Source: Labilithrix sp. (GTDB lineage: Bacteria; Myxococcota_A; Polyangia; Polyangiales; Polyangiaceae). From it: 64,000 nt of DNA. Location of the stretch: assembly GCA_046351255.1 (NCBI GenBank), contig JAXLYU010000009.1:421975-485974 (forward strand), given 5' to 3'. The notes under the pieces were generated by a model. The model was not told the origin of the DNA, ran no database searches, and was given only the letters and a program-made list of their open reading frames with translations. Below are positions 44,744 to 59,409 of the stretch, piece after piece (within the stretch, counting starts at the first letter, position 1; each line of letters opens with the position of its first letter). Both the position numbers and the translations under genes were made by a program.

Positions 44744-45662
44744 ATGCCCGTGATACGCCGCAAAATCATGAGCCTGCTCCAGCTCTTGGGCCTCCGGCAC
44801 CCCATTCTTCAGGCCCCGATGGCCGGCGTCTCGACCCCTGCCATGGCGGCCGCGGTCTCGCGTGCGGGCGGCCTCGGCGCGCTCGGGGTGGGCTCGAGCA
44901 CGCCCGAAGGCGCCCGGAAGGCGATCGCGGAGACCCGGGCCCTGGCCCCGGCCGCGCCGCTCCAGGTGAACGTCTTCTGCCATCGCCCCGCGACGCCAGA
45001 CCCCGCGCGCGAGGCGGCCTGGTCCGCGCGGCTCCCGTTCGCGGAGTACGGCGCGGCGCCTCCCGCGACACTCACGGAGATCTACCGGAGCTTCGTCGTC
45101 GACGACGCGATGCTCGCCATGCTCGTCGCGGAGCGGCCGGAGGTCGTGAGCTTCCACTTCGGGCTCCCGAAGCCGGCGGCGATCCGCGCGCTCCGCGACG
45201 CCGGCATCCTGCTCCTCGCCTGCGCCACGTCGCTCGCCGAGGCGCGCCTCTGTGCCGACGCCGGCGTTCACGCGGTCGTGGCGCAAGGCTGGGAGGCGGG
45301 CGGGCGCCGCGGCTGCCTCGCTCGGCACCGCGTTCATCGCTTGCCGGGAGTCGAGCGCGGACGAGCACCATCGCCGTGCGCTTCTCGGCGACGCCGGCCA
45401 TCACACGACGATGACCCGCGCCGTGTCGGGACGCCCCGCGCGCTGCCTCGCCAATCGATTCACGGAGATCGGGAATGCGACGCCGGACGGCGCGATTCCC
45501 GACTACCCGATCGCGTACGACGCCGGGAAAGCGCTCCACGCGGCCGCGAAGGCCAAAGGGGAATACGGATTCGGCGCGCAGTGGGCGGGGCAAGGCGCGC
45601 CGCTCGCGCGGGCGATGCCAGCAGCGGACCTCGTCGAGAGGCTCGCGGACGAGCTGCGGTGA
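44744..45662 (+). pseudogene. nitronate monooxygenase (NMO/2-nitropropane dioxygenase) disrupted by an internal deletion and frameshift
   Basis: The N-terminal 186 codons (…HFGLP…[10 protein letters not shown]) are in one frame. The C-terminal '[11 protein letters not shown]…' continues in another frame from ~45300. About 33 residues between them are missing compared with NMO family members. Confidence 0.6.
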
Positions 45663-45668
45663 CCCGCG

Positions 45669-46565
45669 TCAGCCGAGGGCGATGTCGTCCTGGTCCATCA
45701 GGAGATACTGATTGGCGAGGCCTTTCAGCATGTCGAGCGCGACCTGGATGTGCATCTCCGAGATGACGAGGAAATCTTCGTATTCGATCCGGTACGCGAT
45801 GATGTCCGTCTCCGCGGCCGCGTCGTACGAGCGAGGCAGACCTCCCCAGAGGTCCATGACGCCGAGCGTGAAATCGGAGGCGACGTCGACGCTCTCGCCC
45901 GACGGGATCGTGCAGTGAATGCGCCCATACTCCACGTGGAGCGCGTACGTGCACGGATCGCCAGCCTTCCAGAAGCGGTGCCCCGCCGGCACGCGCACCT
46001 CGACCATGCGCCGCGCGAGATCGACGAGTGCATCGATGTTCATGTGTACGAACGGGCCTTTCCGTAGCTCGATGAGCTGTTCGACGAGCGTGCGCGGTCG
46101 GTCGTAATAGTCGCCGATATCCGCCTTGGGCGGCCGCTTCGGGTCCGCCGGCAGGCGATGGCGCATGCGGGAGAGGAGCGTCGCGAGGAAGCGGAGGGCG
46201 TTGCGAAGGAGAGAGAAGTTCTCCTCCAGCGCGGAGCGATATCCCTTTACCGGGATCTCGAGCGTCCGCGTGTCGATCTCCGCGATCGCGTCCTGGGTGC
46301 GCGCCTCCGCCATCACGTTGAGGAGCCCGAAGCCGCGGCGCTGCTTGATGACCGCGTCGGGCAGCCTCGGTCGCTTGATCACGACCTGGCCCTCGATGAC
46401 GACGTGGATGACGCTCGGCTCGTCGCCTGCGCGGACGAGGTATTCCCCGGCGCGGTACGATCGCTCGCGCGCATTCTCGACGAGCAGGAGCAGGCCCTCG
46501 TCATCGAGTCCGCCGAACTCCTCGAGGGAGCGAAGGAGGAGGAGCCGGTCGCGGATCTCGGTCAT
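45669..46565 (-). CDS. tandem cyclic-nucleotide-binding-domain protein
   Basis: Start MTEIRDR with an ATGA overlap to the upstream gene's stop, and two cNMP-binding-like segments. The 899-aa ORF extension beyond this is a shadow. Confidence 0.6.
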
Positions 46566-49219
46566 GCCGCGAGCTCCTGCAGATGGAAGCGCGCCACCTC
46601 GCGCACGACCTCGCTCTCGTTGTCCTTCAGGCTCTCGAGGAGGTCGTCGTAGTCCTTCTTCCGCGTGAACTGGTAATGGCGCGCGACGAGCGTCCACTCG
46701 TCCTCGGAGATCTCGTCGACGAGCCCTCTCACCGCGCTCCGGAGAGGATTCACGAGGATGCCGTCGATGAGCTCGAGGCTCGTGGCGCGCTGGTCCTTGG
46801 TCCCGCGGAGCTGGCGATGGATCTGCGCGAAATCCTCGGTGGGAAACGCGAGCCCGAGCAGGCGGAAGAGCCGGGAGACCGCGTTCTTCTCCTTGTGCTC
46901 GAGCGTCGTTCGCAGGAGGTCGTGGCCGGTCGTCTTGCGTCCGGGCTCGCCCTCCGCGCCGCGCGTGAGGACGAGGCGCGAGTCGAGCGACGCAAAGGCA
47001 CGCTGCACCGTCTGGTCGATGGTCTGCTGCAGGACCTTCGCGTCGAGCAGCAGGTCGGGCGTCCGGCGCACGAGCCGCTCGAGGGAGCGGATGATCTGGA
47101 ATCGCACCGCACCATCGCGCTCGTTCGGGAGCCAGGCGAGGAGCGCGGCTGCGGCCGGCTGTGGCGTGAGGAGCGCCATCGCGTGGGGCAGGCGCCAGCG
47201 CAGCGTGCTCGCCGCATCGGACCTCTCGAGCGCCGCGACGAGCCCCGGGAGCGCGCGATCCCCGAAGGTCGCGATCGCCTTCTCCGCGCTCGGCCGCGTC
47301 GTCTCCTCGCCGAGGCGCTCGATGAGGGCGGGGATGAAGGTCTCGCGCCCGAGCCGGCCCATCGCGTCGACCGCGGCGCAGCGCACCGGGGGCTCGACCG
47401 CCGTGGCGAGGGTGACGAGGACGTCGTCGTAGCCGGTCACACCGCGCTGGGCGATCGCCTCCGCGAGCGCGATCTTGGTCTGGGACGTCCCGCGCTTCAT
47501 GAGCGCGTCGATACGCTCCTTCGCGTCGGAGCCGTAGATCTCGCCCGATGCGATCAGGTTCACCGTGATCGTGGCGCGGACCTCGGCGCTCTCCTCGAAG
47601 CTCATTCGCATGAGCAGTTGCTGTGCGTCGGGCGCGAGCACCGAGCGGGCGGCGATGGTCGCGGCGCGGACGCGTGGCGACGGGTGCTCGATCACGCGGT
47701 CGATGACGTGCACGACGTTCGTGCGTCGCGCGCGCGTGAAGATCGCGAGCGCGCGCTCCACGACGACCTCCGACGGGTGATAGAGGATGAGGGCGGGAAT
47801 CAGGTGCACCTTCTCCTCGCGCTCGAGGACGTGAAGCGCGGCCAGCACCTCGTTGTCGAAGCGGCTGTCGAGCGCGGCGATGAGCGTCTCGAGGGAGGCG
47901 AGGTCGAGGTCGGGGAACTCCTCGAGGTGAATCACGCGGCCGGTCCTCAGGCGCGCGCGGAAGAGCTCGACGTACGGCTCGCGGAGCGCGAGGGAGGCCA
48001 CCGCCCAGAACGCGGCGATGGCGACGAGCCCGATCGCCAGCATCCGCAGCGTCGCGCCCGGCATCGCCGCGAACGCGAGGAGCGCGAGCGAGGCGACGAT
48101 TTGCCCGCCGCGCTGGCCGATGACGTCCATGAAGCCCTTCACGCGGGCGCGGGCCTCGTCGCTGAACGGCAGAAAGAGCAGTTCCGTCGCCGTGCGATGG
48201 AGGGAGTAGCGGAGCGAGCCGTCGGCGCTCTTCAGCGCGAGGACGGCCGCGATCCCACCCGTGGCCGCGATCGCGGCGCCGCCGAACGCGAGGAGCACGG
48301 GCAAGATGGCGAGCGCCGCGCCGAGTGAGGTGCGCTTGAGGAGCCGGCTCACGAGGAAGAGCTGGCACGCGAGCGAGGCGACGTTCAGCGCGAAGTACAC
48401 GGTGCCGAGGAAGCGCCCGAGGCTCGCGGCGGGGACCAGTCGCGCCACCATGCTCTTGAAGAGGTAGTCGGCGAGCGTGAGCGTGATGGTGGAGACGAGC
48501 AGCATCGCCACCACGCGTCGGGCGTAGAGCGACTCGCGGATGTATCCGAGGTTGCTCGCGAACGAGGTCCTGGCCTTGCCCTTGGCGGTGCCCGTATGGC
48601 CGGCGTCACGGAAGAGGAAGGGGAGGGCGGAGGTGGCGCCGAAGCCGATCGCGGAGACGAGGAGCAGGTCCTGCGCCGGGACCCAGCGCGTGAGCGCGCT
48701 CGCCGCGCCGCTGCCGAAGATGGCGCCGAGCACGCTGCCCGCGCCGATGAACCCGTAGAGCCGCTTCGCCTGCGTGACGCTGAAGAGGTTGCCCACGAGC
48801 GTCCAGAAGTGGACGAGCAGGAGCGTGGTGAGGAGCCCGGACCAGACGTAGAGCGCGTAGAGCCCCGATCGGCCGAGGCGCTCGACGACGGTGAAGAACG
48901 CGAACGTCACCCCGCCCGCCGCGAGCGAGAACACGGCGAGCGCGGGGCGCGCAGAGATGCGCGCGGACACGATCGCCTGGGCCCGGGCGATGACGAACGA
49001 CAGCCCGGCGACGGCGAGAAAGACCCAAGGGAGCTGCGACGCCGGGACCTTGGCGAGGAAGAGCGCGTCGCGCGCGGTCTCGAGGACGGTGTGGCTGCCG
49101 ATGAGCCCGAAGAGCGTGAAGAACGCGGCCCACGCGTCACGTCGCTCGTCCGGTCGTATCGCGAGGAGTGCCACCCGAGCGCGGCATCCTAGCCTGTTGT
49201 ACGCTCGTGACCATCGCAC
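46562..49219 (-). CDS. TLC (ATP/ADP-translocase-like) membrane domain fused to C-terminal HEAT-repeat domain
   Basis: About 12 TM helices with TLC-like motifs in the first ~430 aa, then ~450 aa of HEAT/PBS-lyase-like repeats (…PRVRAATIAARS…, …PPVRCAAVDAMG…). Confidence 0.65.
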   Translation of the reverse strand: MRWSRAYNRLGCRARVALLAIRPDERRDAWAAFFTLFGLIGSHTVLETARDALFLAKVPASQLPWVFLAVAGLSFVIARAQAIVSARISARPALAVFSLAAGGVTFAFFTVVERLGRSGLYALYVWSGLLTTLLLVHFWTLVGNLFSVTQAKRLYGFIGAGSVLGAIFGSGAASALTRWVPAQDLLLVSAIGFGATSALPFLFRDAGHTGTAKGKARTSFASNLGYIRESLYARRVVAMLLVSTITLTLADYLFKSMVARLVPAASLGRFLGTVYFALNVASLACQLFLVSRLLKRTSLGAALAILPVLLAFGGAAIAATGGIAAVLALKSADGSLRYSLHRTATELLFLPFSDEARARVKGFMDVIGQRGGQIVASLALLAFAAMPGATLRMLAIGLVAIAAFWAVASLALREPYVELFRARLRTGRVIHLEEFPDLDLASLETLIAALDSRFDNEVLAALHVLEREEKVHLIPALILYHPSEVVVERALAIFTRARRTNVVHVIDRVIEHPSPRVRAATIAARSVLAPDAQQLLMRMSFEESAEVRATITVNLIASGEIYGSDAKERIDALMKRGTSQTKIALAEAIAQRGVTGYDDVLVTLATAVEPPVRCAAVDAMGRLGRETFIPALIERLGEETTRPSAEKAIATFGDRALPGLVAALERSDAASTLRWRLPHAMALLTPQPAAAALLAWLPNERDGAVRFQIIRSLERLVRRTPDLLLDAKVLQQTIDQTVQRAFASLDSRLVLTRGAEGEPGRKTTGHDLLRTTLEHKEKNAVSRLFRLLGLAFPTEDFAQIHRQLRGTKDQRATSLELIDGILVNPLRSAVRGLVDEISEDEWTLVARHYQFTRKKDYDDLLESLKDNESEVVREVARFHLQELAA

Positions 49220-50079
49220 GCTGGATCACGGCGGTTCTCGTCTTCTTCGCCTGGGGCTTCGTCATGCACGGGACGGGGCTCCTGTTGCACGAGTTCGGCG
49301 GTCACGCGCTGACGGCGACCATCTGGGGCTGCGGCATCGACGCCTACAAGCTGACGTTCTTCGGGCACGGGCAGGTCACACGCACGCCCTGCGAGGACTG
49401 GACGATGACCGGCATCGTCATCACGGACTGGTCCGGGCTCGTCATCACGAGCGCGGCTGGCGCCGTCGCGGCCGGGCTCCTCCGGAGGCGCCACTGGCCG
49501 CCGATGTGGCGCCTCCTCGTCGCGCTCGTCGCGTTCTTCTTCCTGATCGGCCAGCTCGGCTACGCGACGACGGGCGGCTTTCACGACCTCTACGATCCAG
49601 GCCGCACCGCGCGTTGGCTCGGCAAGCGCGGGCTCCACGTCCTCGCGTGGGTGCCCTCGATGATCCTCTACGCGCTCTCCGCAGTGTACTGCGCGCGCGA
49701 GGCGGTGGACGCCTATCGCGAGCACTTCGGTACGAAGACCCGCCTTCGCACGCTCGGACATCTCGCGAGCACGCTCGGGGTCGCGGGGGTCCTCTACTTC
49801 ATGGCGTTCCGGATCGAGTGGAAGATCCGCGAGGACCTCGCGATGCGCGGCGTGGAGGTGGAGGCCGAGCGTCTCGCGGTGGTGCGGCACACGGCGCCCC
49901 CGTTCCCGATCGACAAGGTGCTCCTCCTCATCTCCCTCGGCGCCGTGATCTGGGCCTTTGCGCGGCCGATCCGCGAGACGAACGACCCGCGGCCCTATCC
50001 CGGGCGCCTCCCGGCGATCGTCGCGCTCGCCGCCGCCGGGTGCTTTCTCCTGATGTTCCTCCTCATAGTACGCTCCTAG
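49168..50079 (+). CDS. polytopic membrane protein, hypothetical (HEFGGH motif)
   Basis: Six or more TM helices. The start may be ATG 49264. It overlaps the TLC-HEAT start divergently. Confidence 0.45.
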   Translation: MPPERGILACCTLVTIARWITAVLVFFAWGFVMHGTGLLLHEFGGHALTATIWGCGIDAYKLTFFGHGQVTRTPCEDWTMTGIVITDWSGLVITSAAGAVAAGLLRRRHWPPMWRLLVALVAFFFLIGQLGYATTGGFHDLYDPGRTARWLGKRGLHVLAWVPSMILYALSAVYCAREAVDAYREHFGTKTRLRTLGHLASTLGVAGVLYFMAFRIEWKIREDLAMRGVEVEAERLAVVRHTAPPFPIDKVLLLISLGAVIWAFARPIRETNDPRPYPGRLPAIVALAAAGCFLLMFLLIVRS

Positions 50080-50081
50080 GC

Positions 50082-50657
50082 ATGAAGCGCTTGGCGGGGG
50101 CATGGGCGACGGTGGTGGCGTGCGTGAGCGAGCCGCCGCCGGCGGCGGTCATGGTGCCGTCGCCGTCGCCGCCGTCCGCGTCGTCCCCCGAGCCGTCACC
50201 GCCGCCGTCACCGCCACCGACCCAGGAGCCGCTCGCGTCTCCAGCGCCGGAGCCGGAGCCCCCGCCGGCTCCGGCCGCGACACCATCTTCGGCCCCGACA
50301 CCGCTGGGCCGCCTCGGCAGCCACAATGGCTCGCCGACCCTTCGCCAGGGCGCCGTGACCGTCAGCGGCAAGCTCCCGCCGGAGGTGATCCAGCGCATCG
50401 TTCGTCAGAACTACGGTCGCTTCCGTCTCTGTTACGAGAACGGGCTCCGGGCGAACGCAAAGCTCGGCGGCACGGTGACGGTCAAGCTCGTCATCGATCC
50501 CACCGGCGCCGTGAAGAGCGCGAACGACGGCGGCTCGTCGCTGCCGGACGCGGGCGTCGTGGCGTGTGTCGTGAAGGGCTTCAGCAACCTCAGCTTCCCG
50601 TCGCCGGCGTCGGGGATGGTCACCGTGACCTATCCCATCGTCTTCACGCCACCCTGA
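50082..50657 (+). CDS. AgmX/PglI C-terminal-domain protein with Pro-rich linker
   Basis: The C-terminus 'IQRIVRQNYGRFRLCYENGLRANAKLGGTVTVKLVIDPTGAV…VVACVVKGFSNLSFPSPASGMVTVTYPIVF' matches the AgmX/PglI C-terminal domain consensus. The N-terminus has a signal/lipobox (VVAC). Confidence 0.65.
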   Translation: MKRLAGAWATVVACVSEPPPAAVMVPSPSPPSASSPEPSPPPSPPPTQEPLASPAPEPEPPPAPAATPSSAPTPLGRLGSHNGSPTLRQGAVTVSGKLPPEVIQRIVRQNYGRFRLCYENGLRANAKLGGTVTVKLVIDPTGAVKSANDGGSSLPDAGVVACVVKGFSNLSFPSPASGMVTVTYPIVFTPP

Positions 50658-50917
50658 GCCGGCGCAGGCCGCTCGACACCCGATCGGGTGTCATCCGATC
50701 GATCGACGCAGCAGGCGGTTCACGGGAGCGTGAAATTCCGGGCACTTCGCGGTCCTCCGCGGGCAGTTTCTCGCCTCGAGCAACGTGGCGTGGCGTCTGC
50801 AGTCGCGGAGACCGCCCGCTTAAGATCGACTCAGCATTCTCTTCGCCGACACTTAGGATCGCGAGTCGGCCGTCCGAGTCATCTTGAGCGAGGTCTTCGA
50901 AACAGGAACCTCCGCTC

Positions 50918-52285
50918 ATGAAAACCACCGCTCTCGGCCACGCTGCCATCCTCTTCTCGTCCGCCGTCATCGCTTTGTCCATCGTCGTCACCGGCTGCAC
51001 CGACGACTCGCCGTCGCCTTCGCAGGGGCCCGCGTCCGGCGCCGTGACGCCCGCGGGGGGCGCGCGCTTCTTCCTCCCCACCGGCGCGGAGATCGACAAC
51101 ACGGCCGCGCCTGTCGTCGAGGTCGACTCGCAGGGCACGACGCACGCCCTCTATCCCGCCTACGCAGGCGGCGGCGCGTACTACGCGCACTGCGGTGCGG
51201 GCTGCGGCGGCCCGGACACCACGAAGGTCGTGAAGCTCGAGACGGACGGCACCGTCGCGAACGCGATGCTCGTCCTCGATGCGCAGGACCGACCGCGCGT
51301 GCTCCTCTCGTCGTTCTCGAAGCTCTACTGGGCGAGCTGTGACGGCGCTTGCGACGAGCGGGCGTCGTGGACAGTGTCGATGATCCTCGACCACGGCGGC
51401 GATCGCGAGGTGAGCGGCGAGGCGCTGGCGCTCGACCCGCAGGGCCGCCCGCGATTCGTCATGCACACGTACCGCGCGTACCTCGGCATCGGCCAGAAGA
51501 CGCCGGAGACGCTCTGGGTCGCTTGCGACGGCGCCTGCGAGAAGCCCGAGAGCTGGTCGCGGTCGGTGATGCAGGCGGCGATCTTCGAGGGATCGCACCT
51601 CCGCTTCGACGAAAGGGGCGTCGCGAAGCTCGCGACGGTGACGGAGGGCAAGGCGGCGTACCTCGAGTGCGCGTCGGGCTGCACCACCGAGAACGACTGG
51701 CACGGCATCGGCCTCGGCGACGCGTTCGCGAGCGAGTACGACGCGGTGGCGATGAAGCCGACGATCGCGATGGCGCTCACGAAGGCGGGCGGGCCGCGCG
51801 TCGTCTTCATGGCGAAGAGCGCCGAGGGCAAGCGGCAGATCCAGTACATCGGCTGCGACGCGGACTGCGCGCAGGATCACTGGAAGGGGATGATCCTCAG
51901 CGACCACGAGAAGCTCGCGGTGGGCCTCGACATCGCGCTCACGGCGGAGGACCAGCCGCGCATCGCGTACAACCTGGACTACAACATCGCGGTCGCGACC
52001 TGCGAGGACGGACACTGCGAGACGGGCGACGCGCCGTGGGACCTCGTGATGATCGAGAAGAGCTCGTCCATCCCGGCAGACCAGATCTTCCTCTACGCCA
52101 ACTGCAACGTCGGCGCGTGGTTCCTCCACTCCCCGTCGATCGCGCTCACGCCGGCCGGCGACTACCGCGTCGGGTACCAGGCGCGGGACATCAGCGGCGG
52201 CTGGTCGAAGCAGGACTACACGAAGGCGGGGTGCCGCGCGGGCACCGACATGACCTGGAGTCGCCTCGCTCTGGTCTCGAAATAG
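50918..52285 (+). CDS. lipoprotein with repeated 'CDGAC'/'GC…C' modules, hypothetical
   Basis: Lipobox VVTGC, with an internal ~90-aa repeat containing paired Cys (…WASCDGACDE…, …VACDGACEK…, …ECASGCTTE…, …GCDADCAQD…). Confidence 0.6.
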   Translation: MKTTALGHAAILFSSAVIALSIVVTGCTDDSPSPSQGPASGAVTPAGGARFFLPTGAEIDNTAAPVVEVDSQGTTHALYPAYAGGGAYYAHCGAGCGGPDTTKVVKLETDGTVANAMLVLDAQDRPRVLLSSFSKLYWASCDGACDERASWTVSMILDHGGDREVSGEALALDPQGRPRFVMHTYRAYLGIGQKTPETLWVACDGACEKPESWSRSVMQAAIFEGSHLRFDERGVAKLATVTEGKAAYLECASGCTTENDWHGIGLGDAFASEYDAVAMKPTIAMALTKAGGPRVVFMAKSAEGKRQIQYIGCDADCAQDHWKGMILSDHEKLAVGLDIALTAEDQPRIAYNLDYNIAVATCEDGHCETGDAPWDLVMIEKSSSIPADQIFLYANCNVGAWFLHSPSIALTPAGDYRVGYQARDISGGWSKQDYTKAGCRAGTDMTWSRLALVSK

Positions 52286-52432: not shown

Positions 52433-54559
52433 TTGGCCGCCAAGATTCCCCTCGAACGCATTCGTAACATCGGCATTTCGGCTCACATCGACTCGGGCAA
52501 GACGACGCTCACCGAGCGCGTCCTGTTCTACACGGGCCGAATCCACAAGATCCATGAGGTCCGCGGCAAGGACGGCGTCGGCGCCAAGATGGACTCGATG
52601 GATCTCGAGCGCGAGAAGGGCATCACGATCCAGTCCGCGGCGACGTACTGCCTGTGGCCTGGCTCGCAGAACCAGATCGAGCCGATCAACATCAACATCA
52701 TCGACACGCCAGGCCACGTCGACTTCACGATCGAAGTCGAGCGCGCGCTCCGCGTCCTCGACGGCGCGGTCCTGATCCTCGACTCCGGCAAGGGCGTCCA
52801 GAGCCAGTCGATCACGGTCGACAAGCAGATGAAGCGGTATCACGTGCCGCGCATCGCCTTCGTCAACAAGATGGATAATCCCGGCGCCAACTACGAGAAG
52901 GGCGCCGACATGCTCGCGAGCTCGGTCACCTGGCGCGCGCCGCCGCGATCCAGCTGCCGATGGGCGGAGCATGAGTTCAAGGGCATCATCGACCCGATCC
53001 TCATGAAGGTCTTCATCGAGGGCAACGACGGGCGAGGTCATCAAGGAAGTCGAGATCCCGCCGAGCGCCAAGCGAGGTCGCCGAGGCCCGCCGCGCACAT
53101 CATCGAGAAGGTGGCCGACGTCGAGGACACCCTCGCCGAGAAGTTCCTCGCCGAGGAGCCCATCTCGATCGAGGAGATCCGCGCCGCCATCCGCCGCGCG
53201 ACCCTCTCGCTCAAGATGACGCCGGTCATGTGCGGCTCGGCCGTCAAGAACAAGGGCGTCCAGCTCCTGCTCGACGCGGTCTACTACTACCTCCCGAACC
53301 CGACGGAGGTCGTCAACGAGGCGCACGACCAGGACAACAACGAGGCGAAGGTCGTCGTCAAGAACGACCCCTCCGGCCCGTTCGTCGGCCTCGCGTTCAA
53401 GCTCCAGCAGGACAAGTACGGTCAGCTCACGTACTTCCGCCTCTACTCGGGCCGCATTGCTGCGGGCGACACCATCTTCAACACGTCGAACGAGAACCGT
53501 AAGGTCCGCGTCCCGCGAATGTTCCGCATGCACTCCGACGACCGCGAAGAGATTCAGGTCGCGGAGGCCGGTGACATCGTCGCCTTCTACGGCGTCGAGG
53601 CCTCGTCCGGCGAGACGTTCACGGACGGCAAGGTCAACTACACGCTGACCTCGATGCACGTCCCGGCCGCCGTCATCTCGCTCGCCGTCGCTCCGAAGGA
53701 CCGCGGCGCGGAGACGAACTTCTCGAAGGCGCTGAACCGCTTCACGAAGGAGGACCCCACCTTCCGCGTGCACCAGGATGAGGAGTCGCAGCAGACCATC
53801 ATCTCGGGCATGGGTGAGCTCCACCTCGACATCTACATGGAGCGCATGAAGCGCGAGTACAACTGCGAGGTCGTCGCCGGCAAGCCGCAGGTCGCGTACC
53901 GCGAGTCGATCTCGAAGAAGGCCGAGATCAACTACACCCACAAGAAGCAGACGGGTGGCTCGGGCCAGTACGCGAAGGTCATGGGCTACATCGAGCCGCT
54001 CCCGCCGGACGCGGTCGAGAGCTACGAGTTCGTGGACGACGTCGTCGGCGGCTCCATCCCGCGCGAGTTCATCTCGTCGTGTGACAAGGGCTTCAAGGAG
54101 GCGGTCAAGAAGGGCAACCTCATCGGCTTCCCCGTCGTCGGTATCCGCTGCTGCGTGAACGACGGCGCGAGCCACGCGGTCGACTCCTCCGAAATGGCCT
54201 TCAAGACGGCGGCCATGATGGGCTTCCGTGAGGCCTACGAGAAGGCGGGCGCGACGATCCTCGAGCCGATCATGAAGGTCGAGATCGACGCCCCGACCGA
54301 GTTCCAGGGCGCCGTCGTCGGCCAGGTCAATCAGCGCCGCGGCGTCATCCAGGAGACGATCGCGGGCGACACCGTGAACGTCATCGCCGAGGTCCCGCTG
54401 AACGCGATGTTCGGTTACTCGACCGACCTCCGCTCCGCCACGCAGGGCAAGGGCACCTTCACGATGGAATTCGCGAAGTACGCCGTCGTTCCGCGCCAGG
54501 AGCAGGACGAGATGATCAAGGCCTACAAGGCCAAGCTCGCCGCGGACGCGAAGAAGTAA
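52433..54559 (+). CDS. fusA: elongation factor G (second-type, spd/mitochondrial-EFG1-like)
   Basis: TTG start after a GGAGAA RBS. G1 'AHIDSGKTT' and a 'GKDGVGAKMDSM' insert typical of spd-type EF-G. It is not in an str operon context. Residues ~160-220 are garbled by compensating frameshifts (see findings). Confidence 0.85.
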   Translation: MAAKIPLERIRNIGISAHIDSGKTTLTERVLFYTGRIHKIHEVRGKDGVGAKMDSMDLEREKGITIQSAATYCLWPGSQNQIEPININIIDTPGHVDFTIEVERALRVLDGAVLILDSGKGVQSQSITVDKQMKRYHVPRIAFVNKMDNPGANYEKGADMLASSVTWRAPPRSSCRWAEHEFKGIIDPILMKVFIEGNDGRGHQGSRDPAERQARSPRPAAHIIEKVADVEDTLAEKFLAEEPISIEEIRAAIRRATLSLKMTPVMCGSAVKNKGVQLLLDAVYYYLPNPTEVVNEAHDQDNNEAKVVVKNDPSGPFVGLAFKLQQDKYGQLTYFRLYSGRIAAGDTIFNTSNENRKVRVPRMFRMHSDDREEIQVAEAGDIVAFYGVEASSGETFTDGKVNYTLTSMHVPAAVISLAVAPKDRGAETNFSKALNRFTKEDPTFRVHQDEESQQTIISGMGELHLDIYMERMKREYNCEVVAGKPQVAYRESISKKAEINYTHKKQTGGSGQYAKVMGYIEPLPPDAVESYEFVDDVVGGSIPREFISSCDKGFKEAVKKGNLIGFPVVGIRCCVNDGASHAVDSSEMAFKTAAMMGFREAYEKAGATILEPIMKVEIDAPTEFQGAVVGQVNQRRGVIQETIAGDTVNVIAEVPLNAMFGYSTDLRSATQGKGTFTMEFAKYAVVPRQEQDEMIKAYKAKLAADAKK

Positions 54560-54582
54560 GTCCTTCGCCGTCCAACCCCGGG

Positions 54583-54620
54583 AGCCCTCGACGCCGCACG
54601 GTGTCGGGGGCTTTCGTCGT
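54583..54620 (+). terminator. possible intrinsic terminator after fusA
   Basis: AGCCCTCGAC…GTCGGGGGCT stem followed by TTTCGTCGTC. The T-tract is weak. Confidence 0.25.
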
Positions 54621-54635
54621 CTAGACTGGCGGTCG

Positions 54636-56378
54636 ATGGCGCGCCTCGACCCTCACTCCTATGCGGATGACACCCAGCCTCGCACCCGTCACTTCGACTG
54701 GCGGGCGCGCGTGGACTTCGAGACGCGCACCCTCGACGCGGAGGTGACGCTCCGCTTCGAGCGCGCCGCGGGCGGCGGGACGCTCGACCTCGACACGCGC
54801 GGCCTCGACGTCCGGCGCGTGACGGCGCCAGACGGCTCTGCGCTCTCGTTCGTGCTGCATCCGGCGGAGCCCATCTTCGGGCAGCGGCTCGCGATCTCGG
54901 TCCCTGCGGGGACCGAGGCGCTGACGGTGAGCTATCGCACCTCGCCGGACGCCTCCGCGCTGCAATGGCTCGAACCCGCGCAGACGTACGGTCGCAAGCA
55001 CCCGTATGTGTTCTCGCAGTGCCAGGCGATCCACGCGCGAAGCATCCTGCCGTGTCAGGACACGCCGTCGATCCGGCAGACCTTCACCGCCTCCCTCGAG
55101 GTCCCGGCCTCGCTCCGCGCAGTGATGGCGGCCGCGCCGCTCGAGCGTGACGGCGCGACCTATCGCTTCGAGATGCCGCAGCCGATCCCGCCGTATCTCC
55201 TGGCCTTCGCGGTCGGCGATCTGGCCTCCAAGGACGTCTCGCCGCGCTCGCGCGTCTGGGCGGAGCCCGGAGAGCTCGAGGCCGCGGTGTGGGAGCTCGA
55301 GGTCGTCCCGGAGCATCTCCGCGTGGCGGAGTCGCTCTTCGGCCAGTACGACTGGGACCGCTTCGATCTCCTCGTCATGCCGCCCTCGTTCCCGTACGGC
55401 GGCATGGAGAACCCGCGCCTCACGTTCCTCACGCCCACGCTCCTCGCGGGCGATCGCAGCCTCGTCAACGTGGTGGCCCACGAGCTCGCGCACTCGTGGA
55501 CGGGCAACCTCGTGACCAACTCCACAGCGGAGCATTTTTGGCTGAACGAGGGCTTCACCGTCTTCGCGGAGCGTCGGATCCTCGCCGCGCTCGAGGGCGA
55601 GGACATGGCCGCGCTCCACGCCGCCATCGGCTTCCAGCGCCTGCAGAAGGCCTTCGAGCAGTTCGAGAAGCATCCCGAGCTCACCCGTCTCCGGACGCAC
55701 CTCGCGGGCATCGATCCCGACGACGCGTTCAGCGCCGTCCCCTACGAAAAGGGCTTCCTCTTCCTCAAGACGCTCGAGGCCGCGGCTGGCCAGGAGGCCT
55801 TCGACGACGTGATGCGGACCTGGCTCGGCGAGCATCGCTTCGGCGCCGCGACGACCGGCGACTTCCTCGCCCTCGTCGACCGCCTGCAGCCCGGCCTCCT
55901 CGCGAAGGTCGACGCCCCTGCGTGGATCGACGGCGCCGGCCTCCCCGCGAATCACTGGAAGCCGGCGTCGGCGAAGCTGACGGCGCTCGAGGCCGTGATC
56001 GGCCGCGCCCCGACGGACGACGAAGGCAAGGCCTGGAGCGCGACGGAGTGGCAGCTCTACCTCGAGGGCACGCCGCATCCGAGCCCGAAGGCGCTCTGCG
56101 AGGACCTGGAGGCGCGCTTCTCGCTGACCGCGTCGAAGAACATGGAGATCCTCGTGAGCTGGCTCGTCCTCGCGTGCGAGTCGGGCCACGCGGCGACCGT
56201 TCTGCCGCGCGTCGACGAGGTGCTGAGCCGCGTGGGCCGCACGAAGTACGTGAAGCCGCTCTTTGCGGCGCTCGCGAGGCGCCCCGAGACCGCCCCGCAC
56301 GCCCGCGAGCTCTTCGAGCGCCTCCGCGCGACCTACCATCCGATCACGCAGCAGGCCGTTCGCTCGCTCCTCAGGTAG
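54636..56378 (+). CDS. M1 family aminopeptidase (leukotriene A4 hydrolase-like)
   Basis: 'GGMEN' motif, 'HELAHSWTGN' (HExxH), and a downstream 'WLNEGFT' Glu. Confidence 0.85.
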   Translation: MARLDPHSYADDTQPRTRHFDWRARVDFETRTLDAEVTLRFERAAGGGTLDLDTRGLDVRRVTAPDGSALSFVLHPAEPIFGQRLAISVPAGTEALTVSYRTSPDASALQWLEPAQTYGRKHPYVFSQCQAIHARSILPCQDTPSIRQTFTASLEVPASLRAVMAAAPLERDGATYRFEMPQPIPPYLLAFAVGDLASKDVSPRSRVWAEPGELEAAVWELEVVPEHLRVAESLFGQYDWDRFDLLVMPPSFPYGGMENPRLTFLTPTLLAGDRSLVNVVAHELAHSWTGNLVTNSTAEHFWLNEGFTVFAERRILAALEGEDMAALHAAIGFQRLQKAFEQFEKHPELTRLRTHLAGIDPDDAFSAVPYEKGFLFLKTLEAAAGQEAFDDVMRTWLGEHRFGAATTGDFLALVDRLQPGLLAKVDAPAWIDGAGLPANHWKPASAKLTALEAVIGRAPTDDEGKAWSATEWQLYLEGTPHPSPKALCEDLEARFSLTASKNMEILVSWLVLACESGHAATVLPRVDEVLSRVGRTKYVKPLFAALARRPETAPHARELFERLRATYHPITQQAVRSLLR

Positions 56379-57240
56379 CCGTCGGGCGAAGCTCGGCCTC
56401 GCGGTCGGACCCGGTGGCCCAGAGCCGTTCCCCGTCCGCGTGGCTCAGCCCGTCGATCTCGAACTGCGTCCGGAGCAGCTCGAGGAGGAGCGCCGGCGAC
56501 TCGATGGTGGTCGTCATGGCCTGCCCGCTCGCCTCGCGAATCGTGAATTCGCGATCGAGGATCGTGGCGCGGCGCCCTTCCGGAAGCGCCTTCGCCACCA
56601 TGAAGCGGTCCTTGAAGTGCGAGCTCGGATGCGTGCTCGTATACCAACTTGCGACGACGCGATCGATGAACGGCATCTCCTCGCCGGTGAACTCGTAGAC
56701 GTCGTTCCAGGTCTCTCCGTACTTGATCTGGTGAAAGCGGCGGCCGCCTTCCTCGATGAGGCGGCGCGGCTCGTGGAGCGTCGGCTGCTCCTCCGCGCCG
56801 ACGGCGCCGAAGCGAAGCGGCGAGGTCAGCGACGCGGCGCCGACGCCGACGTCCGCGAGCCAGTCCTCGCCGTCGAGCCTCACGCGCAGGAAGGTGTGCG
56901 TTCGCGCGGGCGTGAAGTCCCGCGGATGGCGGAGCCGAACGCGCGCGCTGAGGAGCGTCGCCTCGAATCCCAGCTCGCGAAGCACCTCGAGAAAGAGCCC
57001 GTTCTGCTCGAAGCAGTATCCGCCGCGCTTCCGGCGGACGAGCTTGTCGAAGAGCGCCTCCGGCTCGAGCTCGATGGGCCTTCCGAGGAGCACGTCGATG
57101 TTCTCGAACGGGATCCGCCCGACGTGTGCCGGCATCAGCGCCCGGAGCGCTTCGAGCGTCGGCGCGCGCGGGCCGGTGTAACCGTAGCCGACGCGCTCGA
57201 AGTAATGGTCGAGCTTGCTCCCTGCGGGCGTCGACGACAT
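56371..57240 (-). CDS. arylamine N-acetyltransferase (NAT) family
   Basis: Catalytic Cys in 'RGGYCFEQN', at 289 aa. Confidence 0.75.
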   Translation of the reverse strand: MSSTPAGSKLDHYFERVGYGYTGPRAPTLEALRALMPAHVGRIPFENIDVLLGRPIELEPEALFDKLVRRKRGGYCFEQNGLFLEVLRELGFEATLLSARVRLRHPRDFTPARTHTFLRVRLDGEDWLADVGVGAASLTSPLRFGAVGAEEQPTLHEPRRLIEEGGRRFHQIKYGETWNDVYEFTGEEMPFIDRVVASWYTSTHPSSHFKDRFMVAKALPEGRRATILDREFTIREASGQAMTTTIESPALLLELLRTQFEIDGLSHADGERLWATGSDREAELRPTAT

Positions 57241-57288
57241 GTCCGCCCGAGCTTGCCACGACGCGGGGCCGCGCGCTTTCATTCTGGC

Positions 57289-57813
57289 ATGTCTTCGCGT
57301 GTGCTGCCCGACCGCGCGGTCATTCGCACGGCGCGCTGGGGCGATAAACCGTTCCTCGAGGCGCTCAGCGTCGAGGTCTTTTCGCGCTACACGAGGGAGC
57401 CGCTCCGCCTGCTCGAGCGTATGCGTGAGCACGGCACCACGCTCATCGCCGAGCACCCGCTGGCGGGCAAGCCGGTCCCGCTCGGCTATGTCGTCATCGA
57501 GGTCTCGGGCCGTCACGCGGCGACCCCCCACTTCCGCGAGCCGCGTCTGGCGCATCTCTCCGCGATCGCGGTGAAGCCCGAAGCGATGGGCTGCGGCCTC
57601 GGCCGTCAGCTCCTCGAAGCCGCGGAAGACGCCGCGCGCGAGCAGGGCGCGATCTCGATGTCCCTCCTCACGGCGAGCACCAACGTCATCGCCCAGTCGC
57701 TCTTTCGCAGCGCGGGCTATTCGCCGATCCTCCCGGTCGACGACGCCTACCGCAACGAGCAAGACGCGATCCGCATGCTGAAGTCGCTCACGCTGACGCC
57801 AGCGCGCGGCTGA
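57289..57813 (+). CDS. GNAT family N-acetyltransferase
   Basis: 'LSAIAVKPEAMGCGLGRQLLEAAE' is an acetyl-CoA-binding motif A-like segment. Only the last 175 codons of ORF 56263..57813 are coding. Confidence 0.65.
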   Translation: MSSRVLPDRAVIRTARWGDKPFLEALSVEVFSRYTREPLRLLERMREHGTTLIAEHPLAGKPVPLGYVVIEVSGRHAATPHFREPRLAHLSAIAVKPEAMGCGLGRQLLEAAEDAAREQGAISMSLLTASTNVIAQSLFRSAGYSPILPVDDAYRNEQDAIRMLKSLTLTPARG

Positions 57814-57819
57814 ATCACG

Positions 57820-58086
57820 CTCGGCGCTCGCCGCGGTTTCCGGCGCGAAGCCAGACATCTGTGCCCTTGCCGATCGAAGCACCTCAAGGTGCTCGAACGC
57901 GCCGGCCTGATTTCCCGCGGACGGGACGCCCAGACGCGTCCATGTCGTCTCGAGGGAGCTCGCCTCAAGGAGGCCACGCTCTGGATGGAGCGATGGCGCG
58001 CGCATTGGGACGAGAGCTTCGACCGCCTCGACGATCTACTGGTCGAGCTCAAAGCAAAGGAGAAATCTCGTGGTCATGACAAATGA
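57820..58086 (+). pseudogene. ArsR/SmtB-family regulator remnant lacking the N-terminal HTH
   Basis: 'SKHLKVLERAGLISRGRDAQ' is the ArsR recognition-helix/wing motif. The open frame begins immediately after the GNAT stop with no room for the HTH N-terminus, and the only in-frame start lies inside the motif. Confidence 0.5.
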
Positions 58087-58540
58087 GGTTACGGGCAAGC
58101 CAGATCTCCGCATGTCGCGCACGTTCGATGCGCCGCTCGACCTGGTATGGGAAGCGTGGAGCAATGCCGAATACCTCGCACGGTGGTTCACGCCGCGACC
58201 TGGAAAGTCGGAGGACGTCGTCGTCGAGCTACGCACCGGGGGAATCTTCCTCCTGACCATGCGCTTTCCGGTCGAGACCGGAATCGGCGCTCACACCATG
58301 CGCGCGAAGTTCGCCGAGGTCATCCTGCACGGACGCATCTCCTTCGACACGAAGGTCCACGGCCTCGATGTTCATACGACGATCGATTTCTCGGAAGCCG
58401 ACGGCAAGACGACGCTCGACGTTCTCCAGCAATACTCCGGCGACAACGACGCGACCCGTGGCGCGCAGGCCGGCTGGACCTCCACGCTCGACAACCTCGC
58501 GGACGTCGTGAGGTCGATGAAGGCGACGAAGGCGTCCTGA
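58070..58540 (+). CDS. SRPBCC (Aha1/AHSA1-like) domain protein
   Basis: 'SRTFDAPLDLVWEAWSNAEYLARWF' is typical of the Aha1-like SRPBCC family that commonly follows ArsR genes. Confidence 0.7.
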   Translation: MVMTNEVTGKPDLRMSRTFDAPLDLVWEAWSNAEYLARWFTPRPGKSEDVVVELRTGGIFLLTMRFPVETGIGAHTMRAKFAEVILHGRISFDTKVHGLDVHTTIDFSEADGKTTLDVLQQYSGDNDATRGAQAGWTSTLDNLADVVRSMKATKAS

Positions 58541-58573
58541 GCCCGAGCCTGAGCCCGAGCTCGACGGCGATCG

Positions 58574-58894
58574 CTAGACGCCCTCGAGCACGTCGAGGCC
58601 CTTGCCGCCGACTGGCGTGAAGCGCGTCCCGTCGGGGGCTCCCGCCAGGAGCGGCATGGTCTCTTTGATGAGATCGCGGACGCCAGGCATCGACAGCGAC
58701 GCGCCATGCGCGACCTCGTCGCGCCAGAGCTCCGTGATCCAGACGTCATCGGGGTCCGTGGGTGACGTGCTCACCACGTAGAGCAAACAGCCCGGCACGC
58801 CGCGCATCAGCTCCGCTGCGCGCAGCATCTGCTGCACGAGGGCGTCGCGCTTGCCAGGCATTGCCATCATCTTGCCGAACATGCCGAAGAGCAT
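58574..58894 (-). CDS. ABM (antibiotic biosynthesis monooxygenase)-fold protein
   Basis: 106 aa, with 'VWITELWRDEVAHGAS' typical of ABM/quinol-monooxygenase-like proteins. Confidence 0.5.
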   Translation of the reverse strand: MLFGMFGKMMAMPGKRDALVQQMLRAAELMRGVPGCLLYVVSTSPTDPDDVWITELWRDEVAHGASLSMPGVRDLIKETMPLLAGAPDGTRFTPVGGKGLDVLEGV

Positions 58895-58917: not shown

Positions 58918-59409
58918 CTACTGCCGCGCGATGGTTGCGACGACGGTCGCGCGCCGTGCGTTCACGATCGCGAGGAAGCGTTGCGCCTCCGTGCCGACGA
59001 GCCCCACGAGATCCGAGCCGTGCGCATGCGTGACCCGTACCGCACGCGGTTGCTCCGGCAGCCCGTTGGCCGGCGAGGCGGAATGGATCGCGAGGTCCGT
59101 GATCGCCGCGTGTGGAATGGATACGCGCCGCCAGAGCCAGCGGAGATGAATGCCCTCCGCGTCGACCCAAACCTGCGTGGGAACCAGCGCAGCTGCGACC
59201 GCGACCGCGGAGACGGCGCAGACGAGCGCGCCGCCGAGCTGGATCATCAGCCCTTCGGCCGCGCTGACCGGCACGCCGTTCCGACCCATCTGCCGACCGG
59301 TGAGCGCGAAGGCGAAGCCGAGGAGGCACGGGATCCCCATGAACCAGGCGAACGTGCTCGGCGCGACGAGCGGCGACGAGGCGCGAAACGAGTCTCCTTC
59401 GCCCGTCAT
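58918..59409 (-). CDS. membrane protein, hypothetical
   Basis: Two TM helices at 163 aa. It lies immediately downstream of the sigma54 regulator gene. Confidence 0.45.
   Translation of the reverse strand: MTGEGDSFRASSPLVAPSTFAWFMGIPCLLGFAFALTGRQMGRNGVPVSAAEGLMIQLGGALVCAVSAVAVAAALVPTQVWVDAEGIHLRWLWRRVSIPHAAITDLAIHSASPANGLPEQPRAVRVTHAHGSDLVGLVGTEAQRFLAIVNARRATVVATIARQ

What the first reader, a model, noticed from the sequence alone, without database searches (positions are those of the whole stretch)
52913..53095. Cluster of compensating frameshifts inside fusA (EF-G)
The ORF is continuous, but residues 'ASSVTWRAPPRSSCRWA' and 'RGHQGSRDPAERQARSPRPAAH' are nonsense for EF-G. Alternate frames of the same nucleotides read 'ARELGHLARAAAIQLPMG(A)EHEFKG', 'EVIKEVEIP', 'AERQA' and 'SEVAEAR(A)AH', which are the expected conserved G'-domain text. 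At least six ±1 indels within ~180 nt, each in a G/C run, net to zero. The likeliest cause is a local sequencing or assembly error (homopolymer-type) in an essential-type gene. If real, it would be an extraordinary recoded EF-G paralog. Independently, this EF-G is the spd/mitochondrial-EFG1-like type (GKDGVGAKMDSM insert) and sits outside any rpsL-rpsG-fusA-tuf context, so it is a second EF-G copy.
Basis: seen in the sequence. Interest (0 to 1): 0.6.

Follow-up and report, generated by a model that had tools for sequence, protein, structure and literature searches.

The report
Scrambled 194-base patch in EF-G gene
An otherwise perfectly conserved translation-factor gene (mitochondrial-type EF-G) in a Labilithrix metagenome-assembled genome has one 194-base stretch full of small insertions, deletions and base changes, which is most likely a local assembly or consensus error and not biology.

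Summary
The 708-aa EF-G ORF (52433-54559, +) stays open, but about 40 residues in two stretches are nonsense, and the proper text can be read in other frames.

Compared with the closest relative (L001, activated-sludge contig, syntenic, 97.7% DNA identity), fusA has 35 changed or gapped columns in 52902-53095. The other 1,922 nt have only 8 differences, all at third codon positions (Fisher p = 1e-29).

The lesion is not a set of ±1 homopolymer slips. It is about 10 indel events of 1-7 nt (net -3) plus 12 substitutions, skewed AT->GC, and the patch has no homopolymer of 4 or more.

None of 84 orthologues changes length here, and human mtEFG1 also aligns without gaps. The patch keeps L001-specific synonymous alleles, so it is a damaged copy of the normal sequence and not an imported allele. 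Frame correction does not restore a normal protein, and there are no slippery sites, so programmed recoding is excluded.

Short-read assemblies that contain the same strain break or turn chimeric inside fusA. No independent sequence carries the variant.

Best explanation: a local consensus or assembly artefact (about 0.85). Read-level proof is not available here. The spdEFG1 (mitochondrial-like) type and the non-str-operon location are confirmed. "Second copy" is not shown.

The parts
52433..54559 (+). spdEFG1-type elongation factor G gene (fusA-like), 708 aa, TTG start; identical to GenBank protein MFO0738442.1 (MAG: Labilithrix sp.)
   Evidence: ORF. TIGR00484 EF-G scores 886.6 bits against a cutoff of 659.4. 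A 100% identical protein, P0001, is in NCBI. Best solved relatives are mitochondrial EF-G1, 797 bits against 683 for T. thermophilus EF-G.
52568..52576 (+). KDG codons (residues 46-48): the three-residue switch-I insertion that marks spdEFG1/mtEFG1
   Evidence: The HMMER alignments show hevrGKDGvgakmd in the query and in mtEFG1. Canonical EF-Gs read gevh--dga-atmd. Margus et al. 2011 name KDG as the spdEFG1-specific insertion.
52902..53095 (+). Aberrant patch: 35 differing or gapped columns against the nearest relative (12 substitutions, 10 inserted and 13 deleted bases), hitting all codon positions
   Evidence: Outside the patch the gene differs from L001 at only 8 sites, all at codon position 3.
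52913..52966 (+). First out-of-frame stretch. In frame it reads ASSVTWRAPPRSSCRW. The conserved text (RE-LGHLARAAAIQLPMG) lies in the +2 frame and carries extra codon-level indels
   Evidence: Three-frame translation and frameshift-aware alignment to P0002. In-frame identity to P0002 over residues 156-178 is 0.26, against a minimum of 0.52 among 84 orthologues.
53030..53095 (+). Second out-of-frame stretch. In frame it reads RGHQGSRDPAERQARSPRPAA. The conserved text GEVIKEVEIP..K / EVAEARR lies in the two other frames
   Evidence: The frame changes are +1 at 53030, +1 at 53073 and -2 at 53095.
50918..52285 (+). Upstream neighbour: 455-aa protein with no Pfam hit (not rpsG or rpsL)
   Evidence: The same gene precedes fusA in L001.
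54636..56378 (+). Downstream neighbour: M1-family aminopeptidase, 580 aa (not tuf)
   Evidence: Pfam PF17900/PF01433/PF09127 on the L001 orthologue. The exact protein is also found on L087 and L088.

Best explanation
The 194-nt patch (52902-53095) is a local consensus or assembly error in the deposited MAG contig. The organism's real gene almost certainly reads like its relatives here: 709 aa, ...EKVSDMLREKLGHHAVMIQLPMGAEHEFKG...GEVIKEVEIPAEYKEAAEARRQHIIEK... or very close to it.

Likely route (inferred, not shown): the 520-kb contig comes from a long-read or hybrid assembly. A short stretch of raw or low-depth long-read consensus, about 10-15% error and rich in indels, was left unpolished or was used to bridge a break in the short-read graph. 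fusA is a natural place for this. Its flanks are near-identical between co-occurring Polyangiales populations, and short-read assemblies of the same strain break or cross over inside the gene.

The errors happen to sum to -3 and meet no stop codon. The gene caller therefore saw an intact ORF and the scrambled protein entered GenBank.
For: 1. Extreme localisation. There are 35 changed columns in 205 nt against 8 in the other 1,922 nt of the same gene (p = 1.3e-29). All 8 outside differences are at third codon positions, whereas the patch hits all positions. So there was no selective filtering inside the patch.
2. The patch retains L001-specific synonymous alleles (GAGCATGAG, GAGGTCATCAAGGAAGTC). 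It is therefore a damaged L001-like sequence and not another haplotype.
3. None of 6 close relatives from 4 samples, and none of 80 species-representative orthologues, has a split frame or any length change in residues 150-232. Human mtEFG1 aligns gap-free there too.
4. Elsewhere in 12.8 kb aligned to L001, every coding indel is a multiple of 3, so the assembly is not generally indel-prone. A codon-usage scan of the whole window flags no other internal frame anomaly in a called gene.
5. The change spectrum runs against natural mutation bias. 8 of 12 substitutions are AT->GC and all 10 inserted bases are G or C.
6. Short-read assemblies that hold the same strain fail in this gene. The Logan contig L088 (100% identical) ends inside fusA at 54248. 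The MEGAHIT contig L087 is identical to the window from 53646 to 58849, but is 20-25% divergent upstream of that point and has an unrelated 5' flank.
7. Those short-read contigs are 1-7 kb while the MAG contig is 520 kb. This suggests a different, long-read or hybrid, assembly route.
8. The variant has no independent support. The protein cluster has one member. The variant 29-mer is absent from JGI metagenome contigs. No protein fragment carries the patch.
9. An open ORF after such scrambling is expected by chance about 13-17% of the time.
Against: - No reads, quality values or assembly metadata were available, so the error itself is not demonstrated.
- The sequencing technology of the MAG is unknown. 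If it were a pure Illumina de Bruijn assembly, a patch like this would need read support and would more likely be real.
- No independent assembly of the very same strain covering 52902-53095 could be retrieved to show the 'correct' sequence.
- The window does carry other gene-disrupting differences. One of them, the loss of the ArsR-family gene 5' end at 57817-57873, is reproduced in an independent short-read contig and so is real. Real lesions therefore do exist in this strain.
Confidence: 0.85

Rival explanations
1. The patch is real. A single clustered mutational event, for example error-prone repair of a break, scrambled about 40 residues of spdEFG1. The gene would then be a very young pseudogene or a crippled factor, tolerated because another EF-G family member (EFG I or a further paralogue) covers translocation.
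For: The strain carries real lesions in other genes. The loss of the ArsR-family gene 5' end is reproduced in L087, and an NMO-family gene has a 149-nt frame-breaking deletion. The MAG sequence is otherwise accurate where short-read contigs overlap it (100% to L088 and L090). Multiple EF-G paralogues are common in delta-proteobacteria/Myxococcota (PMC3150367).
Against: About 22 independent events in 194 nt against 0.4% divergence in the rest of the gene has no known natural mechanism. No donor sequence, repeat or quasi-palindrome was found that could template it. The AT->GC skew and G/C-only insertions oppose the usual GC->AT mutational bias (the bias itself is my background knowledge). The gene shows very strong constraint right up to the patch edges: third-position-only differences, and 0.4% divergence against 2.3% in the flanks. 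No second occurrence was found. By homology, the first scrambled stretch replaces the G-domain strand that follows NKMD, which all 84 orthologues conserve.
Confidence: 0.1
2. The patch is a recombination or gene-conversion tract imported from a divergent EF-G allele or paralogue, with a few real frameshifts on top.
For: fusA is demonstrably a crossover point between lineages in assemblies (L087). The patch coincides with the most variable part of the protein.
Against: The patch shares L001-lineage-specific synonymous sites. In no frame does it match any known homologue better than it matches P0002. No relative has the codon-level indels. An imported functional allele would be in frame.
Confidence: 0.03
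3. Programmed recoding: ribosomes shift frame several times to make a normal EF-G from this mRNA.
For: The conserved text is present in alternate frames and the zero frame has no stop.
Against: It would need at least 5 shifts of mixed sign within 180 nt. There is no X XXY YYZ heptamer and no run of 4 or more at or near any shift site. Even the best frame-corrected product keeps about 17 residue-level differences and codon indels in 70 residues, while the rest of the protein differs from P0002 at a single residue (D->E at 53125). No relative shares any of the shifts.
Confidence: 0.01

Closest known systems
spdEFG1 / mitochondrial EF-G1 (mtEFG1, GFM1) subfamily of elongation factor G
   Same: It has the full five-domain EF-G architecture (Pfam GTP_EFTU, D2, EFG_III, EFG_IV, EFG_C). 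It has the KDG insertion in switch I. Its highest similarity to solved structures is to mammalian mtEFG1, 797 bits against 683 for T. thermophilus EF-G. It is located outside the str operon. The taxon (Myxococcota, formerly delta-proteobacteria) is one of the three 'spd' groups.
   Different: Only the 194-nt patch differs. With it, residues about 157-178 and 203-224 do not resemble any family member.
Residual local errors in long-read or hybrid metagenome assemblies (unpolished islands, gap fills)
   Same: It is a short stretch with about 10-15% mixed indel and substitution error inside an otherwise accurate contig. It lies in a conserved gene where short-read graphs tangle. The contig is very long compared with the short-read contigs of the same strain.
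   Different: The assembly method of this MAG is unknown to me. The errors are not the usual homopolymer type. They happen to restore the frame, so the annotation pipeline did not flag a frameshift.
Canonical EFG I (str-operon fusA)
   Same: It scores above the cutoff of the general EF-G equivalog model TIGR00484 and is about 50-55% similar to the E. coli and T. thermophilus factors.
   Different: It has no rpsL-rpsG-fusA-tuf context. It carries the KDG insertion that EFG I lacks.

Membership tests
Elongation factor G (TIGR00484 equivalog) | Whole-protein score above the curated cutoff | tested here: met
   886.6 bits against a cutoff of 659.4, covering profile positions 1-690 of 691.
spdEFG1 subfamily | Three-residue 'KDG' insertion in switch I | tested here: met
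   The query and mtEFG1 read hev(r/k)GKDGvga.md. Legionella and S. aureus EF-G show a 3-residue gap at that place. The criterion is taken from Margus et al. 2011, PMC3150367.
spdEFG1 subfamily | Groups with mitochondrial EFG1 and not with EFG I or mtEFG2 | tested here: met
   Tested by best hit only; no tree was built. mtEFG1 scores 797 bits, T. thermophilus EF-G 683, and mitochondrial EFG2/RRF2 414.
spdEFG1 subfamily | Co-occurrence with spdEFG2 (or EFG I) elsewhere in the same genome | not testable with these tools
   Only 64 kb of the genome is available, and it holds no other translational GTPase.
EFG I (str-operon fusA) | Gene sits in rpsL-rpsG-fusA-tuf | tested here: not met
   The neighbours are a 455-aa hypothetical protein and an M1 aminopeptidase, and the same synteny holds in L001 and L084. 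tblastn finds no EF-Tu-like GTPase in the window.
Programmed ribosomal frameshifting | Slippery site at the shift, and the shift conserved in relatives | tested here: not met
   There is no XXXYYYZ heptamer in the gene and no run of 4 or more in 52880-53120. None of 86 relatives has a frame change.
Programmed ribosomal frameshifting | The frame-corrected product restores the conserved protein | tested here: not met
   The best frame-corrected reading still has codon indels and about 17 residue differences in 70 residues.
Homopolymer-type sequencing error | Indels of ±1 located in homopolymer runs | tested here: not met
   Indel events are 1-7 nt long, and the patch contains no homopolymer of 4 or more.
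Real allele or pseudogene | Independent recurrence of the variant in another assembly or sample | tested here: inconclusive
   The variant was not found in JGI metagenome contigs, in the protein collection or in the gene-position index. However, no independent assembly of the same strain covers the site at all.

The most novel reading that the evidence does not exclude
The patch is real. A single catastrophic, GC-biased, indel-rich mutational event rewrote about 40 residues of the G domain and G' subdomain of an otherwise perfectly conserved mitochondrial-type translocase, and the cell survives because another EF-G paralogue takes over. This would be a snapshot of the first step of loss or neofunctionalisation of spdEFG1, and evidence for an unknown localised hypermutation process in Myxococcota.
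Probability: 0.08. Interest if true: 0.5.

Novelty: not a real feature. Interest (0 to 1): 0.12.

Why it matters
The biological importance is small. The value is practical.
- A GenBank protein (MFO0738442.1) annotated as elongation factor G contains about 40 nonsense residues.
- Frame-compensating error clusters escape frameshift and pseudogene flags because the ORF stays open.
- Highly conserved genes such as fusA are weak points of metagenome assembly. The same strain's short-read contigs break or become inter-species chimeras inside this gene.
- Such patches can contaminate protein databases, alignments and structure-prediction inputs, and can mimic 'recoded' genes.

The correct side observation is that this Labilithrix lineage carries a mitochondrial-type spdEFG1 outside the str operon. 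This fits what is already published.

Tried and rejected
- GC3 frame plot over fusA. It was too coarse to see 17-22-codon shifts, so I replaced it with a codon-usage log-likelihood scan. The scan recovers the patch. Every other flag it raised was upstream of a true start codon.
- Template-switch or ectopic-donor idea. No inverted or direct repeat explains the new sequence, and no second copy of the variant 22-mer exists in the window.
- Mosaic-of-haplotypes idea. The patch matches none of six related haplotypes and keeps L001-specific alleles.
- Two metagenome-wide exact scans, one with the variant 29-mer and one with the lineage-specific 43-mer from the intact middle of the patch. Both gave 0 hits.
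- Genome-collection scan. It returned 80 orthologues but not the source genome.
- Exact-protein look-ups. The aberrant EF-G and the 455-aa neighbour are not on record. Neighbours gave L087-L090, but none spans the patch with the window's haplotype.
- Protein search with the 201-aa patch-centred query. It found only distant fragments, 68% identity or less.
- Search with L087's EF-G. It only showed that this protein has no close relative, which is consistent with a chimera.
- AlphaFold2 on the 12-sequence alignment. Mean pLDDT was 33.9, which is unusable, so no structural claim rests on it.
- Paper searches for the run and analysis accessions found nothing.
- tRNA, Rfam and tandem-repeat scans of the window found nothing relevant.

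Full report
**What is there.** The window carries a 708-aa ORF at 52433-54559 on the + strand. It scores 886.6 bits against the NCBIfam EF-G equivalog TIGR00484, whose cutoff is 659.4. The identical protein is in GenBank as MFO0738442.1, 'MAG: elongation factor G [Labilithrix sp.]', on a 520,151-bp contig, and it is the only member of its 90% cluster. In frame, the protein reads ...NYEKGADMLASSVTWRAPPRSSCRWAEHEFKGIIDPILMKVFIEGNDGRGHQGSRDPAERQARSPRPAAHIIEK.... The two other frames of the same bases read ARELGHLARAAAIQLPMGGA, GEVIKEVEIPPSAK and SEVAEARRAH.

**Comparison with relatives.**
- The best relative, P0002 (709 aa, 94% identity), differs from the window protein almost only in residues about 156-224.
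- Its contig L001 is a 13-kb MEGAHIT contig from an activated-sludge metagenome. It is syntenic with the window (455-aa protein, EF-G, M1 aminopeptidase, N-acetyltransferase and so on) and 97.7% identical in DNA over 11.6 kb.
- Along that alignment, fusA is nearly identical to L001 everywhere except 52902-53095. Inside the gene, 35 differing or gapped columns fall in a 205-nt test window (52896-53100) against 8 in the remaining 1,922 nt (Fisher p = 1.3e-29). All 8 outside differences are at third codon positions, whereas the patch hits all three positions.
- The flanking genes differ from L001 by 2.3%. Every other indel between the two sequences is a multiple of three or intergenic.
- Five further close haplotypes from three other samples (L002, L083, L084/L085, L086; 91-94% DNA identity) all keep the relatives' length and frame. 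The window is 75-82% identical to each of them in the patch but 91-99.6% outside it.

**Anatomy of the lesion.**
- A pairwise alignment gives 12 substitutions (8 AT->GC, 2 G>C, 2 C>T), 10 inserted bases (all G or C) and 13 deleted bases, in about 10 indel events of 1-7 nt, net -3.
- A frameshift-aware protein-to-DNA alignment needs frame changes at 52913 (-1), 52966 (-2), 53030 (+1), 53073 (+1) and 53095 (-2). It also needs two codon deletions and a two-codon insertion. Even this best-case reading keeps about 17 residue-level differences in 70 residues.
- There is no homopolymer of 4 or more and no X XXY YYZ heptamer in 52880-53120.
- So the description 'six ±1 indels in G/C runs, net zero' is not accurate. 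This is a scrambled patch, not a set of homopolymer slips.

**Is the patch an allele from elsewhere?** No.
- It retains synonymous variants that are specific to the L001 lineage (GAGCATGAG; GAGGTCATCAAGGAAGTC), so it is a damaged copy of an L001-like sequence.
- No repeat, quasi-palindrome or second copy of the new sequence exists in the window that could have templated it.

**How constrained is the region?**
- Eighty orthologues from GTDB species representatives (74-86% identity, Polyangiales to Binatia, including the complete Labilithrix luteola genome) each give a single unbroken tblastn match.
- Together with four more close relatives, none of 84 sequences has any length difference from P0002 in residues 150-232. 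In-frame identity of the window to P0002 in residues 156-178 is 0.26, against a minimum of 0.52 among the others.
- Human and porcine mitochondrial EF-G1 align gap-free across the same stretch, and canonical EF-Gs do so with at most a one-residue gap.
- By homology to solved EF-Gs (my knowledge of the fold, not a computation here), the first stretch replaces the end of the helix and the beta-strand that follow the NKMD (G4) motif of the G domain. The second stretch lies in the G' subdomain. An AlphaFold2 attempt on a shallow alignment failed (mean pLDDT 33.9) and is not used.

**Evidence from the same strain in other assemblies.** Exact-protein look-ups of neighbouring genes found short-read contigs of the same or nearly the same strain.
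- L088 (Logan, SRR14271350) is 100% identical to window 54248-56676.
- L090 (Logan, SRR26348422) is 100% identical to 49055-50134.
- L089 (SRR14271350) is 99.5% identical to 49302-51878, with natural-looking SNPs and one in-frame 3-nt indel.
- L087 (ENA ERZ27248705, MEGAHIT) is covered below.

These contigs lead to three points.
1. Where they overlap, the MAG is accurate.
2. These contigs are 1-7 kb while the MAG contig is 520 kb. This suggests, as an inference, that the MAG came from a long-read, hybrid or otherwise different assembly.
3. fusA is an assembly trouble spot. L088 ends inside the gene. L087 is identical to the window from 53646 to 58849 (2 mismatches), but 20-25% divergent from 52447 to 53645, with an unrelated 5' flank. 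Its EF-G has no relative above 82% identity. It is therefore an inter-lineage chimera (or recombinant) with its junction in fusA.

None of these contigs covers 52902-53095 with the window's haplotype, so the 'true' sequence of this strain was not seen directly.

**No independent support for the variant.**
- The variant 29-mer has no match in JGI metagenome contigs.
- The aberrant protein is not in the gene-position index.
- A patch-centred protein query found no fragment that carries it.

The open ORF is not evidence of selection. In this GC-rich gene, the off-frames are stop-free over 18-22 codons 60-74% of the time. Together with the 1-in-3 chance of a net multiple of three, that gives about 13-17% by chance. 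A codon-usage scan of all called genes in the window recovers the fusA patch and nothing comparable inside another gene.

**Interpretation.** The pattern has these elements:
- about 22 events in 194 nt on a background of 0.4% divergence;
- no codon-position bias inside the patch, against third-position-only differences outside it;
- a GC-skewed spectrum, opposite to the usual bacterial GC->AT mutational bias (background knowledge);
- lineage-specific alleles retained;
- no recurrence elsewhere;
- a gene in which assemblies of this community demonstrably fail.

This pattern is best explained by a local consensus or assembly error, for example an unpolished or gap-filling stretch of long-read consensus. 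I put this at about 0.85.

A real one-off mutational cluster, giving a young pseudogene or crippled factor, cannot be excluded without reads (about 0.10). One point in its favour is that this strain does have real gene-disrupting lesions. The ArsR-family gene has lost its 5' end at 57817-57873, and L087 reproduces that loss exactly. Import from a divergent allele (about 0.03) and programmed recoding (about 0.01) are contradicted.

- The gene is indeed the spd/mitochondrial type. It has the KDG switch-I insertion that Margus et al. 2011 (PMC3150367) give as the spdEFG1 marker. Its best solved relatives are mtEFG1.
- It is outside a str-operon context, and that position is conserved in relatives.
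- It does not follow that it is a spare 'second copy'. The literature describes spdEFG1 as the translocation-specialised partner of spdEFG2 in genomes lacking EFG I, and notes ambiguous EFG I/spdEFG2 assignments in delta-proteobacteria.
- The very high constraint on this gene argues that it is functionally important, which again favours an artefact.

**Verdict.** It is not a biological feature, and interest is low.

Noticed in passing
window 44768-45656 (junction at about 45309/45310): An NMO-family (PF03060) gene is broken. Three relatives (347-354 aa) match residues 1-184 in one frame and 234-346 in another. The DNA alignment shows a clean 149-nt deletion that removes the conserved GGHRG...AAGGI segment. 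It could be a real pseudogene or an assembly collapse. L001 does not cover this region.
   Followed up: partly
window 57817-57873: The ArsR/HTH_5 regulator gene (116 aa in L001, L002 and L083) lacks its promoter and first 43 codons. 251 nt of L001 are replaced by 57 nt, with a 94-nt internal deletion between CGATC microhomologies. The independent MEGAHIT contig L087 is 100% identical here, so this lesion is reproducible and probably real.
   Followed up: yes
window 58918-59409 (- strand): A 163-aa ORF (MTGEGDSFRASSPLV..., apparently a membrane protein) lies between the ABM-domain gene and the sigma-54 response regulator. L001 has a ~430-nt deletion that removes most of it, and L002 and L083 have only 64-105 nt at this position. 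This is a strain-level indel polymorphism.
   Followed up: partly
L087 1-1650, against window 52447-53645: The MEGAHIT contig ERZ27248705:k141_642575 is identical to the window downstream of 53646. Upstream it carries a different (~80% identical) fusA 5' half and an unrelated flank. Its EF-G has no relative above 82% identity. It is either an inter-species chimeric contig or a natural recombinant with its junction inside fusA.
   Followed up: partly
L088 (window 54248-56676); L089 (window 49302-51878); L090 (window 49055-50134): The same or a nearly identical strain is present in the public runs SRR14271350 and SRR26348422 (Logan contigs, 99.5-100% identical). These runs could be used to test the patch at read level.
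   Followed up: no
window 50082-50657: A 191-aa Pro/Ser/Ala-rich protein evolves fast. It is only 84% identical to L001 while its neighbours are 95-99% identical, and it has several in-frame 3- and 6-nt indels (50164, 50197, 50282-50289).
   Followed up: no
window 46565-49174 (- strand): An 870-aa HEAT-repeat protein gene is present in the window and in L001 between the NMO gene and the 290-aa membrane protein gene. It is absent at that position in L002, L083 and L084, so it is a lineage-specific insertion.
   Followed up: no
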